Shown here: piece after piece, positions 1-3,000 of the stretch | How positions within the stretch are numbered: position 1 is the first letter of the stretch | Layout of the letters: each line of letters starts with the position of its first letter | Position numbers: made by a program | IMG/VR virus record: IMGVR_UViG_2698536372_000011 | Source: a virus | Taxonomy: Duplodnaviria > Heunggongvirae > Uroviricota > Caudoviricetes | Direction: 5' to 3' (one strand) | Length of the DNA: 4,550 nt

Positions 1-3000
1 CAGCCTTCAGGGAAAAATATCATCAGATGGCTGCTTAAAAAAAGAACAAATGGTAGTGTCCGCTATTGCCAGTACACCTCATGGTTTGTGAAAAACCACC
101 ACGCAGTTCGTCAGGCAAAGAGAAAGGCCAATATGACATACATGAAGGCGTATCAAAAAGCATGGAAAGAACACCGCGATCGATACCAACAAGACATGGA
201 AAAGCTTGAATCAGAAAACATGGAATTAAGACGAAAGCTCGGTGAAGCAAAACGAGACATTGATGCTTACAAGCGACTTTTTAATGGTGAAAGCCATGCT
301 TAGCCCATCCCAATCCCTTCAATACCAGAAAGAAAGCGTCGAGCGAGCTTTAACGTGCGCTAACTGCGGTCAGAAGCTGCATGTGCTGGAAGTTCACGTG
401 TGTGAGTACTGCTGCGCAGAACTGATGAGCGATCCGAATAGCTCAATGTACGAGGAAGAAGACGATGAATGAGTTAATAAATGGCAATGCCATCAAAATG
501 ACAAGCATTGAAATAGCTGAGTTGGTGGGTAAGCGTCATGACAATGTGAAACGTACCATCGAAACGCTGGCTAAAAATGGTGTTATCCGGCTTCCTCAAA
601 TTGAGGTTTCCGAAAGAATCAATAACTTAGGGTTCAATGTTCAGTACGAGCATTACGTCTTCGAGGGCGAACAAGGTAAGCGAGACAGTATTGTCGTTGT
701 TGCCCAGTTGTCGCCAGAGTTCACCGCTCGTCTTGTTGACCGTTGGCGAGAGCTTGAAGAAACTGCGGTTAATATCCCCAAAACGTTACCGGAAGCGTTG
801 CGCCTTGCTGCTGATCTTGCTGAGCAGAAAATGCAACTGGAAAACCAGCTCGCAATTGCCGCACCTAAAGTTGAGTTTGCCGATCGCGTTGGCGAGGCCA
901 GCGGAATTTTGATTGGAAACTTTGCAAAGGTTGTTGGTATTGGTCCAAACAAACTGTTTGCGTGGATGCGCGATCACAAAATCCTTATTGCTTCAGGTTC
1001 CCGGCGCAATGTGCCAATGCAGGAATATATGGATCGCGGCTATTTCACAGTGAAAGAAACAGCGGTCAACACAAATCACGGAATACAGATATCGTTCACC
1101 ACAAAAATCACCGGGCGTGGTCAACAGTGGCTGACCAGAAAGCTGCTCGATAACGGAATGCTGAAAGTAACAGGGGAGGCTGCTTAATGGCTAACCTACG
1201 CAAAGAATCTCGCGGCAGAGAATGCCAGGTACGTATTTACGGCATATGCAATGGCAATCCTGAAACTACAGTTCTGGCACATTACCGGATGGCTGGAATT
1301 TGCGGAACGGGAATGAAGCCTGACGACCTGATCGGCGCATGGGCTTGTAGCGCGTGTCACGATGAAATCGACCGACGCACCCATAACCTCGACAACAAAG
1401 ACGCCAGACTTTACCACCTCGAAGGCGTGATCAGGACGCAGGCGATACTGCTGAAGGAGGGGAAGATTAAGTCATGAACGAATATCAGTTTGTGCTTCCA
1501 TACCCGCCGTCGGTGAATACCTACTGGCGAAGACGGGGAAGCCAATACTACATCAGCGATAAAGGCCAGAAATACCGAAAAGACGTTCAGCAAATCATCC
1601 ACCAACTCAAGTTAGATATTTTCACCAAATCACGACTCCGCATCAAAGTAATCGCAGACGTTCCAGACTCCCGCCGCCGCGACCTAGATAACATCCTGAA
1701 GGGTTTACTCGACTCCCTTATCCATGCCGGATTTGCGGAAGACGACGAGCAATTCGATGACATTCGCGTAATTCGTGGTGTGAAAGTACCAGGCGGACGG
1801 CTTGGAATAAAAATCACCGAACTGGAGAACGCATGAACGCCACAATTCAAACGATACCAGAGCTTCTTATCCAGACACGAGGCAATCAGACCGAAGTGGC
1901 GAGGATGCTTTCCTGCGCAAGAGGAACAGTGCTCAAGTACAACCGAGACAGCAAAGGCGAGCGTCATGTAATAGTTAACGGCGTCCTGATGGTCAAACAG
2001 GGCAAGAGGGGAAGACGATGAGACTCGAAAGCGTAGCTAAATTTCATTCGCCAAAAAGCCCGATGATGAGCGACTCACTACTGGCCACAGTTTATTGGTT
2101 TTCGTAACTGAGTCATTTTATTATTTTATTGCAACTTTTAATCTTTTATAGTGCGAAATAAATGGAGCTGGCATTCATTTCGCACTTTATGTTTTTGTTG
2201 GACTTATGTTATTTTGATTGAATTCAATTCAGTTAAAAAAAGAAGGTGATTGCTCCATTTATAAATGAATAGTCATCCCCTGTCTTGAATTCTGATGTTA
2301 CTTTATTAAATGCTAGTGTGAAGGCTACAGGTGCATACCCAATTGTTGCGCCAACTTGATATTCATCAACAGTTTTGTTTAGCGATACTGTTGTTTGTTT
2401 CGTCTGTATTGTTTTTCCTTCGAGAGTATAGTTGCGATTGACATCTCGTCTTTCCATACCTGCAAAAATCTTGTATTTGAATCCGCTTGTATCGGACATA
2501 TGCATTAAACCACGGGGAGCCAGCAGACCAAAGCCATTATCCGAATTGAAGGTTTTATCATTACCAATGGCAATGGTTGCGCCATATGCTACATATTGAA
2601 ATAAGTTTCCAGTAACAGCAGAAACTTCAGGGTATAATCCAACATTAGCACCTAAAATATCCATACTTGGTGTCATGGATAGCATCCCTTTTACAGTATA
2701 ACCGTAGCGATTCTCTATTTGATCATCCCATGCATGATATTTTTCTGCCCCAATAATCTCATGAGCTTTATTTTGTACTTTCTGACCGCCTGCGTCGGGG
2801 CCAACAACACCTATGTCAGTACCTAATCGATAGCGAATCCAGTCATTCGCAAGGGAGTTCCATTCAATACCAGTGTGAGTGTATGCACTAAAAGCTCTGT
2901 CTCCAGTTACAGCTGTGTTGTGTCTTTTATTACTGCCTGATGGAGAGTAAATATCTTGCGCAATATGGAGAGATAATTGGCTCGAGTCTGAGATATCGTG

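What the first reader, a model, noticed from the sequence alone, without database searches (positions are those of the whole stretch)
465..1187. Rha/KilA-C antirepressor embedded in the nin operon
In lambda, ninF is followed directly by ninG. Here a 240-aa Rha-N/KilA-C antirepressor-type gene is inserted at that point and is translationally coupled to its neighbours. Antirepressors expressed from an early operon can inactivate repressors of co-resident prophages, so this is a candidate inter-prophage induction or interference factor.
Basis: partly seen in the sequence, partly recalled or inferred. Interest (0 to 1): 0.4.

Follow-up and report, generated by a model that had tools for sequence, protein, structure and literature searches.

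The report
Known lambdoid phage gene roi
The flagged gene is real but ordinary: it is roi, a named DNA-binding regulator common in lambda-like phages, no evidence shows it is an antirepressor, and its coding sequence carries a conserved palindrome next to an IHF host-factor site that may be its own binding site.

Summary
[quoted passage not shown] Its start overlaps the ninF stop (ATGAATGA) and its stop overlaps the next start (TAATG).

It is not new. The protein is 239/240 identical to Roi of phage HK620 and 88% identical to Roi of HK022. About 1,110 of 5,426 complete E. coli genomes carry a match. The order ninF-roi-ybcO-rusA-ninH is the standard HK022/HK97/HK620 arrangement. Here roi-ybcO-rusA replaces lambda ninG; it is not inserted in front of it.

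"Antirepressor" is a label taken from the domain name. The studied orthologue is a site-specific DNA-binding protein that is reported to bind inside its own gene, next to an IHF site.

I found a likely counterpart of that site. A 25-bp dyad (588-612, core CCTCAAATTGAGG) lies 17 nt upstream of the window's only IHF consensus (617-629). Both sit in the hypervariable codons for the recognition helix and wing. Nine roi alleles keep the dyad through compensatory changes, and most distant Rha-domain genes have one at the same place.

Most likely function: an IHF-assisted, self-binding regulator. Inter-prophage antirepression remains untested.

The parts
465..1187 (+). roi coding sequence (240 aa plus stop)
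   Evidence: ORF. 239/240 identical to HK620 Roi and 88% to HK022 Roi. Identical copies occur in O26/O103 STEC genomes.
452..472 (+). Upstream coupling junction: Shine-Dalgarno GAGGA (452-456), roi ATG (465-467) and ninF stop TGA (470-472)
   Evidence: Read directly from the sequence; ORF coordinates.
498..761 (+). Rha-type winged helix-turn-helix domain (aa 12-99)
   Evidence: Pfam PF09669, 36.7 bits. The AlphaFold2 model (mean pLDDT 90.9) shows strand 11-13, helices 14-21 and 25-37, wing strands 45-52 and 58-67, and helices 68-101.
528..656 (+). Hypervariable patch (aa 22-64) covering the recognition helix and the wing
   Evidence: Every difference from HK022 Roi falls between aa 22 and 99, and almost all between aa 22 and 64. 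At least 8 allele types occur among the 120 best database hits.
588..612 (.). 25-bp dyad-symmetric element centred on 600; perfect core CCTCAA-A-TTGAGG at 594-606; candidate Roi operator
   Evidence: 9 of 12 arm positions are complementary, the joint-top dyad of the gene. The core occurs once in the window and once in the HK620 genome. Symmetry is kept by compensatory change in 9 alleles. Dyads sit at the homologous place in distant homologues.
617..629 (+). IHF consensus AATCAATAACTTA (WATCAANNNNTTR)
   Evidence: The only match in the window. HK022 has its only match in 6.8 kb at the same place. 7 of 9 alleles keep it with the same synonymous codons. The same motif at the same 17-nt spacing occurs in P22-type rha genes.
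786..896 (+). Long linker helix (aa 108-144); a second, two-state variable patch lies at about aa 99-130
   Evidence: AlphaFold2 model; allele alignment.
840..1148 (+). ANT/KilAC domain (aa 126-228), nearly invariant among alleles even at the DNA level
1185..1189 (+). Downstream coupling junction TAATG: roi stop overlaps the start of ybcO/hkbD
   Evidence: Sequence; ORFs.
296..472 (+). ninF, the upstream neighbour
   Evidence: Pfam NinF, 47 bits. 97% DNA identity to lambda ninF up to position 467.
1187..2021 (+). Downstream operon genes: ybcO/hkbD (1187-1477), rusA (1474-1836), ninH (1833-2021)
   Evidence: Pfam YbcO 146.6, RusA 60.9 and NinH 85.7 bits. Same order as in HK022, HK97 and HK620.

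Best explanation
The ORF is the roi gene of the HK022/HK97/HK620 group of lambdoid phages. It sits in the delayed-early nin operon and is translationally coupled to ninF and ybcO/hkbD. Roi has two domains: an N-terminal Rha-type winged helix and a C-terminal KilAC module that also looks like a winged helix.

The most likely mechanism is as follows. A Roi dimer binds, through its Rha domain, to a palindromic operator inside its own coding sequence (588-612). IHF binds next to it (617-629) and stabilises the complex. The complex limits Roi production, and possibly transcription on towards Q. When IHF is missing this control fails, and excess Roi blocks lytic growth.

Shown here: the gene's identity, domains, genomic context and coupling; the existence of the dyad and the IHF consensus; and their conservation. 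Taken from the literature: Roi binds DNA inside its own gene near an IHF site, and shows an IHF-dependent growth phenotype. Inferred: that the dyad is the Roi site, that the effect is autoregulation or a transcription roadblock, and what the KilAC domain does.

My confidence that this is roi is about 0.97. The score of 0.55 below refers to the mechanism.
For: Identity: 239/240 to HK620 Roi and 88% to HK022 Roi, with the same gene order as HK022, HK97 and HK620.

Literature: Roi is treated as a DNA-binding protein implicated in lytic growth (PMC3430580, PMC4587872). Rha of phi80 and P22 blocks growth in IHF-deficient hosts, and IHF regulates rha (PMC4936722). From my memory of the abstract of Clerget & Boccard 1996, which could not be retrieved: Roi binds a site within its own gene closely linked to an IHF site, and IHF stabilises that binding.

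Sequence evidence found here:
- The only IHF consensus in the window is inside roi, and the same is true for HK022.
- It is an island of identity inside a patch that is otherwise about 55% identical, and 7 of 9 alleles keep the same synonymous codons, ATC AAT xxx TTA.
- A dyad is centred on the same nucleotide in all 9 alleles with different core sequences. 79.6% of cells pair against 58.4% in shuffles (0 of 500 shuffles reach this), 11 of 12 pairs change on both sides, and slid controls reach at most 50.5%.
- In 10 of 14 distant Rha-domain genes the top dyad of the whole gene lies within 12 nt of the homologous nucleotide, and in 6 it lies exactly on it. Binomial P is about 6e-12 to 5e-9.
- The same dyad-17 nt-IHF arrangement occurs in P22-type rha genes.
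- Rha genes that lack a KilAC domain also have the dyad, which ties it to the Rha domain.
- An E. coli allele and Ralstonia phage Heva share the helix DVKRSIERL and the half-site CCGCCA.
Against: No binding experiment links the dyad to Roi, and I could not read the 1996 paper to compare coordinates.

On its own, one IHF consensus match in 4.5 kb is not significant: 60 of 200 shuffles have at least one. Two of nine alleles lack it.

The link between recognition helix and dyad could be mere physical linkage, since the two lie about 30 bp apart. The dyad could be an RNA hairpin, because several alleles fold well (down to -19.5 kcal/mol). It could also be a quasi-palindrome maintained by template-switch mutation.

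In P22 rha the dyad is weak, with 4-bp arms. One of the 14 distant genes has its top dyad elsewhere, and three have it 17-23 nt away.

In the source prophage type the nin operon is cut by IS600 just upstream, and the best-annotated relative lacks N, cI and cro. The gene may therefore be poorly expressed there.
Confidence: 0.55

Rival explanations
1. Roi is a true antirepressor. It would bind and inactivate the CI-type repressor of its own phage or of co-resident lambdoid prophages, promoting induction or cross-induction.
For: PHROGs and RefSeq label the family 'anti-repressor'. The part from aa 73 to 234 is 58% identical to the C-terminus of P1-type Ant1, the one proven antirepressor with a KilAC domain. 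O26 genomes often carry two roi copies and many lambdoid prophages.
Against: The label comes from the domain name. P1-type KilA, which is not an antirepressor, shares the same module at 67% identity. In Listeria AriS the module has a different activity (PMC9043618). No P22_AR or AntA domain is present. The studied orthologue is described as a DNA-binding protein (PMC3430580, PMC4587872). Known antirepressors have their own tight control, such as P22 immI, P1 C4 RNA or LexA (established knowledge). Here no promoter-like site lies at the gene, Rfam finds no regulatory RNA, and the gene is translationally coupled inside a delayed-early operon. A product of that operon appears only after the repressor has already been lost.
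Confidence: 0.12
2. Roi is an AriS-like dual-function regulator. The N-terminal domain would regulate the phage's own genes, while the conserved KilAC domain would dampen the host SOS response, probably through RecA. That would coordinate or restrain induction of co-resident prophages rather than trigger it.
For: In Listeria AriS and two homologues, SOS inhibition maps to the ANT/KilAC domain. The authors list pRha+KilAC as one of the AriS-like architectures (PMC9043618). The KilAC part of Roi is almost invariant while the N-terminal part is hypervariable, as expected for a constant effector joined to variable targeting.
Against: AriS was studied in Firmicutes, and I did not measure its sequence identity to Roi's KilAC. 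There is no evidence in E. coli. The predicted KilAC fold resembles DNA-binding winged helices of the MerR/Par/RacA type, but only weakly, at Z no higher than 6. This reading does not conflict with the self-operator model for the N-terminal domain.
Confidence: 0.13
3. The intragenic dyad is not a protein operator. It could be an mRNA hairpin that affects translation, RNA processing or pausing. It could also be a neutral quasi-palindrome kept symmetric by template-switch mutation, with Roi's real target lying elsewhere.
For: Several alleles fold into stable hairpins, from -9.8 kcal/mol in the window to -19.5, with z-scores down to -6. Compensatory changes are equally expected for RNA stems. No second copy of the dyad exists elsewhere in the HK620 or HK022 genomes, so no regulon is apparent.
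Against: The innermost pair flanks a single central base and is complementary in 9 of 9 alleles. It could not pair in a hairpin. Stability varies from -2.9 kcal/mol in HK022 (z = -1.0) to -19.5. The mismatches are not G:U. The position is kept across genes with 29-49% protein identity, which argues for selection. The reported Roi site lies within the gene near an IHF site (recalled abstract).
Confidence: 0.18

Closest known systems
Roi of coliphages HK022, HK97 and HK620 (Clerget & Boccard 1996, J Bacteriol 178:4077)
   Same: Same gene: 239/240 identical to HK620 Roi and 88% to HK022 Roi. Same place in the nin operon between ninF and hkbD/rusA. The IHF consensus lies at the same codons.
   Different: The window carries the HK620-type allele of the recognition helix and wing, not the HK022/HK97 allele that was studied. 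Its dyad core is CCTCAA-A-TTGAGG instead of CTGCA-T-TGCAG. The surrounding prophage is cut by IS600 and carries an lpxR moron and a Q82-type antiterminator.
Rha of phages phi80 and P22 (Henthorn & Friedman 1995)
   Same: It shares the N-terminal Phage_pRha winged helix. Both Rha and Roi block phage growth in IHF-deficient hosts (PMC4936722; title of Clerget & Boccard 1996). P22-type rha genes carry an inverted repeat followed 17 nt later by AATCAATRACTTA at the homologous codons.
   Different: Rha has an ORF11CD3 C-terminal domain instead of KilAC and lies in the late region after the lysis genes. Roi scores below the cut-off of the narrower NCBIfam Rha model (17.9 against 45.95 bits).
Ant1/Ant2 and KilA of phage P1
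   Same: The C-terminal KilAC module is 58% identical to Ant1 and 67% identical to KilA.
   Different: The N-terminal parts are unrelated: KilA-N in KilA, and no Pfam domain in Ant1. P1 ant lies in the immI region under its own control (established knowledge), not in a nin operon. It is not known whether the KilAC part carries the antirepressor activity.
AriS of Listeria phage phi10403S (PMC9043618)
   Same: [quoted passage not shown]
   Different: AriS has an AntA/AntB N-terminus, comes from Firmicutes, and inhibits the SOS response. No such activity has been tested for Roi.
P22 Ant and the phi24B/933W-type ant gene of Stx phages
   Same: In some Stx phages a P22_AR-type ant gene sits immediately upstream of roi in the nin region (PMC3430580).
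   Different: It is a different protein family (ORF6N + P22_AR_C), with no such domain in Roi. Even for phi24B Ant, deletion had no effect on superinfection, and only a role in efficient induction was proposed (PMC3064807).

Membership tests
Roi orthologue group (HK022/HK97/HK620 roi) | Full-length high sequence identity to a named Roi protein | tested here: met
   239/240 identical to HK620 Roi; 212/241 (88%) to HK022 Roi.
Roi orthologue group (HK022/HK97/HK620 roi) | Location between genes P and Q, in the nin operon after ninF and before hkbD/rusA or ninG | tested here: met
   The window order is ninF-roi-ybcO-rusA-ninH. The same order occurs in HK022, HK97 and HK620 and in 75 of 80 related viral contigs.
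Roi orthologue group (HK022/HK97/HK620 roi) | Binds a site within its own gene that is closely linked to an IHF site | not testable with these tools
   Sequence candidates only: a dyad at 588-612 and an IHF consensus at 617-629. The primary paper could not be retrieved.
Roi orthologue group (HK022/HK97/HK620 roi) | Blocks lytic growth in IHF-deficient hosts | not testable with these tools
   Needs phage genetics.
Pfam Phage_pRha (PF09669) | Score above the Pfam gathering threshold | tested here: met
   36.7 bits against a cut-off of 29.9, over aa 12-99 and the full model length. The predicted winged-helix fold has pLDDT above 90.
NCBIfam TIGR02681 phage_pRha subfamily | Score above the curated cut-off | tested here: not met
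   17.9 bits against a cut-off of 45.95; only aa 12-36 match.
Pfam ANT / KilAC (PF03374) | Score above the Pfam gathering threshold | tested here: met
   113.5 bits against a cut-off of 25.3, over aa 126-228.
Functional antirepressors (P22 Ant, P1 Ant1/2, Tum/Gifsy type) | Homology to a protein shown to bind and inactivate a phage repressor | tested here: inconclusive
   Only the C-terminal module matches P1-type Ant1, at 58%. P1-type KilA, not an antirepressor, shares it at 67%. No P22_AR or AntA domain is present.
Functional antirepressors (P22 Ant, P1 Ant1/2, Tum/Gifsy type) | A dedicated control circuit that keeps the gene silent in the lysogen and releases it on a signal (own promoter with Mnt/Arc, C4 antisense RNA or LexA) | tested here: not met
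   No promoter-like site lies at or before the gene. Rfam finds nothing in the region. The start codon overlaps the ninF stop, so expression follows the delayed-early operon.
Functional antirepressors (P22 Ant, P1 Ant1/2, Tum/Gifsy type) | Physical binding to a repressor and derepression in vivo | not testable with these tools
   Needs biochemistry or genetics.
AriS-like dual-function regulators | [quoted passage not shown] | tested here: met
   pRha + ANT. The architecture is listed in PMC9043618.
AriS-like dual-function regulators | The KilAC domain inhibits the SOS response | not testable with these tools
   Needs SOS reporter assays.
Anti-phage defence proteins (PADLOC) | Match to a defence-system model | tested here: not met
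   No PADLOC family at E <= 0.01.

The most novel reading that the evidence does not exclude
Rha-type winged-helix genes, including roi and rha, may carry their own operator inside the codons for the junction of recognition helix and wing. That operator is a palindrome which, in enterobacterial members, is followed 17 nt later by an IHF site. The DNA-reading part of the protein and the DNA it reads would then be one roughly 130-bp cassette. The cassette diversifies into alleles and moves as a unit through mosaic phage genomes. This would explain the shared IHF-dependent phenotype of Roi and Rha.
Probability: 0.4. Interest if true: 0.6.

Novelty: already known. Interest (0 to 1): 0.28.

Why it matters
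As flagged, the finding matters little. roi is a named, widespread and non-essential nin-region gene, and calling it an antirepressor repeats a domain-name annotation.

Two points are still useful. First, the 'anti-repressor' label attached to thousands of Rha/KilAC proteins is not evidence of antirepressor function, so STEC prophage cross-induction models should not rely on it. Second, the conserved, compensating intragenic palindrome next to an IHF site gives a concrete and cheaply testable model. It would explain how Roi and Rha are controlled, and why both become toxic to the phage without IHF, a question left open since the 1980s-90s. It also suggests how a regulator and its site can stay together in highly mosaic genomes.

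Tried and rejected
- Sequence searches against solved structures found nothing with the single protein. With a 72-sequence profile the only hit was a marginal winged-helix match at E = 0.24.
- A first AlphaFold2 run on a shallow alignment of near-identical alleles failed for the C-terminal half (mean pLDDT 46). A run with 72 diverse representatives gave pLDDT 90.9.
- PADLOC, Rfam and the tRNA scan found nothing relevant.
- The promoter and terminator scan shows no promoter-like site at the gene. The two terminator-like hits inside it are within the number expected by chance.
- I looked for further copies of the dyad as a sign of a regulon. HK620 has one exact copy, inside roi, and 3 matches at up to 2 mismatches against 1.6 expected. 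HK022 has one exact copy and 6 matches against 2.1 expected, none of them in a regulatory region. A second 2-mismatch copy inside roi (864-876) lies in the invariant KilAC-coding part, and I judged it chance.
- A generic repeat search inside the gene found nothing useful.
- The primary papers could not be retrieved: Clerget & Boccard 1996, Henthorn & Friedman 1995 and Iyer et al. 2002. Statements about the Roi-binding site therefore rest on my memory of the abstract and on secondary citations.
- ORFs on the opposite strand inside 465-1187 (up to 99 aa) were disregarded. They are embedded in a strongly conserved coding gene, and no evidence supports them.
- I rejected the idea that the palindrome is a by-product of a conserved peptide motif. 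Symmetry depends on synonymous codon choices, and it survives changes of the encoded residues (PM[AE], QIE, ALQ, PPE).
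Full report
**1. What is there**

The window is the nin region of a lambdoid prophage. The + strand carries these genes:
- the 3' part of a phrog_1511 gene (88-303)
- ninF (296-472)
- the flagged ORF (465-1187)
- a YbcO/DUF1364 gene (1187-1477)
- rusA (1474-1836)
- ninH (1833-2021)

A low-GC segment follows, with an lpxR-family gene on the minus strand (2233-3192) and then a Q82/Q21-type antiterminator ending at 4357.

The flagged ORF runs from ATG to TAA and encodes 240 aa. Pfam detects Phage_pRha at aa 12-99 (36.7 bits, cut-off 29.9) and ANT/KilAC at aa 126-228 (113.5 bits, cut-off 25.3). The start codon lies within the end of ninF (ATGAATGA, 465-472), and a GAGGA sits 8 nt upstream. 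The stop shares a base with the next start (TAATG, 1185-1189). The next two junctions are ATGA overlaps.

**2. It is a known gene**

The protein is 239/240 identical to the annotated Roi of phage HK620 and 88% identical to Roi of HK022. The same DNA, at 93-98% identity, occurs in HK97, HK022, HK620, HK633, HK140, HK75, mEpX1/2, CUS-3 and Kapi1, among others. It is annotated there as roi, 'DNA-binding protein Roi' or 'anti-repressor'.

In complete E. coli genomes, 1,110 of 5,426 have a match and 158 records are at least 99% identical. Many O26 and O103 STEC strains carry a 100% identical copy. 124 genomes contain at least 80% of the window. At 50% clustering, the wider family has 7,159 representatives at E <= 0.001.

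**3. The 'insertion' claim**

Lambda has ninF-ninG-ninH-ninI-Q. Homology between the window and lambda ends at position 467, which is the roi start codon. It resumes only at 2008-2088, the end of ninI and start of Q. There is no ninG here. A roi-ybcO-rusA block stands in its place, so the RusA resolvase substitutes for the Rap resolvase.

This is the standard arrangement in HK022, HK97 and HK620. Of 80 viral contigs carrying this allele, 75 have it, 3 have ninF-roi-ninG, and 2 have ninF-roi-rusA. In 933W-type Stx phages roi lies between a P22_AR-type ant gene and ninG. roi is thus one of several interchangeable nin modules, joined at gene boundaries.

**4. What the protein looks like**

With a diverse alignment, AlphaFold2 gives a confident model (mean pLDDT 90.9). 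It shows:
- an N-terminal winged helix, with helix 14-21, recognition helix 25-37 and wing strands 45-52 and 58-67
- two helices up to residue 101
- a long helix at 108-144
- a second compact helix-turn-helix-plus-hairpin domain at 150-229

The C-terminal part is 58% identical to the C-terminus of P1-type Ant1 and 67% identical to that of P1-type KilA. This is the similarity on which the family name 'antirepressor KilAC' rests.

**5. Is it an antirepressor?**

Nothing tested here says so.
- No P22-Ant-type domain is present.
- No promoter-like site or regulatory RNA lies at the gene.
- The gene is translationally coupled inside an operon that is transcribed only after repression has been lifted. 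That is the opposite of the dedicated control typical of P22, P1, 186 or Gifsy antirepressors (established knowledge).
- The held literature calls Roi a DNA-binding protein implicated in lytic growth (PMC3430580; PMC4587872).
- Rha, which shares the N-terminal domain, is detrimental to lytic growth without IHF, and IHF regulates rha (PMC4936722).
- In Listeria AriS, the KilAC domain was shown to inhibit the SOS response, not to bind a repressor (PMC9043618).
- Even the neighbouring P22-type Ant of phi24B had no effect on superinfection when deleted (PMC3064807).

The inter-prophage induction idea is therefore possible but unsupported.

**6. A cis element inside the gene**

From memory of the abstract of Clerget & Boccard (1996), which could not be retrieved: HK022 Roi binds a site within its own gene, closely linked to an IHF site, and IHF stabilises the binding. 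I looked for sequence counterparts.

The IHF consensus WATCAANNNNTTR occurs once in the window, at 617-629 inside roi. It occurs once in 6.8 kb of HK022, at the homologous position. One match in 4.5 kb is not significant by itself, because 60 of 200 shuffles have at least one.

However, it lies in the most divergent stretch of the gene, as an island of identity. Seven of nine allele types keep it with identical synonymous codons, ATC AAT xxx TTA GG, including the rare TTA leucine codon.

Seventeen nucleotides upstream of the IHF core is the centre of a dyad, CGGCTTCCTCAA-A-TTGAGGTTTCCG (588-612, perfect core at 594-606). All nine alleles have a dyad centred on exactly this nucleotide. Between 8 and 11 of 12 arm positions are complementary, and the dyad ranks first or second in each gene. 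The core sequences differ: CCTCAA/TTGAGG, CTGCA/TGCAG, CCCCCA/TGGGGG, ACTCCG/CGGAGT and GGAAACCGCCA/TGGCTGTTTCC.

Counted as a structure across the nine alleles:
- 79.6% of cells pair, against 58.4% in shuffles (0 of 500 shuffles reach this value).
- 11 of 12 pairs show changes on both sides (0 of 500).
- Slid controls reach at most 50.5%.

The encoded residues change in step (PM[AE], QIE, ALQ, PPE), and symmetry depends on synonymous choices. It is therefore not a by-product of a peptide motif.

**7. The element is a family feature**

I took fourteen distant Rha-domain genes from the hit list without regard to this feature. They come from phages of Vibrio, Ralstonia, Aggregatibacter, Salmonella, Klebsiella, Clostridioides, Pseudomonas and Acinetobacter, and include lytic phages such as ICP1. 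Two of them are Rha genes without a KilAC domain.

In 10 of 14, the top-scoring dyad of the whole gene lies within 12 nt of the nucleotide predicted by protein alignment. In 6 of 14 it lies exactly on it. Three more lie 17-23 nt away. Binomial P is about 6e-12 to 5e-9.

In a 24.7-kb stretch of the O26 prophage, the only two IHF-consensus matches are in roi and in the late-region rha gene. In both, the match begins 17 nt after the dyad centre. P22 rha, whose regulation by IHF is reported, has the same IHF motif at the same place. Its short inverted repeat differs from the O26 copy by one compensatory change, CGCA/TGCG against CCCA/TGGG.

Because Rha genes without KilAC also have the dyad, the element belongs with the Rha domain.

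**8. DNA operator or RNA hairpin?**

The innermost pair flanks a single central base and is complementary in 9 of 9 alleles. It cannot form in a hairpin. Predicted RNA stability ranges from -2.9 kcal/mol in HK022 to -19.5. This favours a double-stranded palindrome read by a symmetric dimer, but it does not exclude an RNA role or maintenance by template-switch mutation.

The dyad core is unique in the HK620 and HK022 genomes. If Roi binds it, the effect is therefore local: autoregulation, or a roadblock on the way to Q.

**9. Allele structure**

Residues 22-64 cover the recognition helix and wing, and their codons contain the dyad and the IHF site. This stretch is hypervariable, with at least eight types among the 120 best hits. 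A second, two-state patch covers about aa 99-130. The KilAC-coding half is about 99% identical at the DNA level in all alleles compared.

Alleles with the same recognition helix have the same dyad core. An E. coli allele and Ralstonia phage Heva share both the helix DVKRSIERL and the half-site CCGCCA. This fits co-variation of reader and site. Among the closely linked E. coli alleles, though, it could be simple linkage.

**10. Context caveat**

Positions 1-81 are the end of an IS600 copy that truncates the gene upstream of ninF. In O26 strain 11368 the same prophage has lost N, cI and cro and has a frameshifted O gene. In such hosts roi may be little expressed, which further weakens any claim about its activity there.

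**11. Verdict**

The gene is already known.

The added value of this analysis is the conserved intragenic palindrome-plus-IHF element. It offers a testable mechanism for Roi and Rha control and a possible self-contained specificity cassette.

Noticed in passing
window 1-81 and 88-303: Positions 1-81 are the end of an IS600 copy, 100% identical to IS600 copies in O26 genomes. It truncates a phrog_1511 gene, of which only the 3' part (88-303) remains. The nin operon is thus interrupted about 380 bp upstream of roi.
   Followed up: partly
window 2018-2088: Directly after ninH lies a remnant of the first roughly 70 nt of a lambda-type Q gene (94% identity to lambda). RefSeq annotates it as a partial antitermination protein. 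It marks a mosaic junction also present in phage 434.
   Followed up: partly
window 2233-3192 (minus strand), low-GC region about 2000-3600: An lpxR-family outer-membrane lipid A deacylase gene (Pfam LpxR, 137 bits) lies on the opposite strand in a 32-41% GC island between ninH and Q. It looks like a moron with possible effects on LPS. Phage 434 and many O26 prophages have the same arrangement.
   Followed up: partly
window 3531-3653 and 3584/3668-4357: A YlcG-like small ORF precedes a Q82/Q21-type antiterminator (Pfam Phage_antiter_Q, 306 bits). RefSeq starts Q at the ATG at 3668, not at the mechanical GTG at 3584.
   Followed up: no
window 4341-4369 and 4403-4424: A promoter-like site (TTGCAA-17-TATACT) is followed by a strong terminator-like hairpin with a T-run just downstream of Q. 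This fits pR' and its early terminator. There is also a sub-threshold Rfam hit to STnc240 at 4364-4433.
   Followed up: no
L003:20963-21580 (O26 prophage late region) and L110:301-906 (P22 rha): The late-region rha gene (Rha + ORF11CD3 domains) carries the same arrangement as roi: an inverted repeat, then 17 nt later an IHF consensus, at the homologous wing codons. In 24.7 kb of the O26 prophage, the only two IHF-consensus matches are in roi and in rha.
   Followed up: yes
window 864-876: A second, 2-mismatch copy of the dyad core (CCTAAAGTTGAGT) lies 270 bp downstream, inside the invariant start of the KilAC-coding part. It is probably chance, but it could be a secondary half-operator.
   Followed up: partly
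window 840-1187 compared with L001, L005, L006, L007, L008: The KilAC-coding half of roi is about 99% identical at the nucleotide level, synonymous sites included, in phages whose N-terminal halves and flanking genes differ. This suggests very recent spread by recombination or an additional constraint on the DNA.
   Followed up: no
L006:1692-2426, L090:1246-1926, L092:659-1324: In several relatives a P22-Ant-type gene (ORF6N + P22_AR_C domains) lies in the same nin region, directly upstream of roi in L006 and L090 and separated from it by ninB and ninE in L092. Two different 'antirepressor-named' genes therefore often lie side by side.
   Followed up: partly
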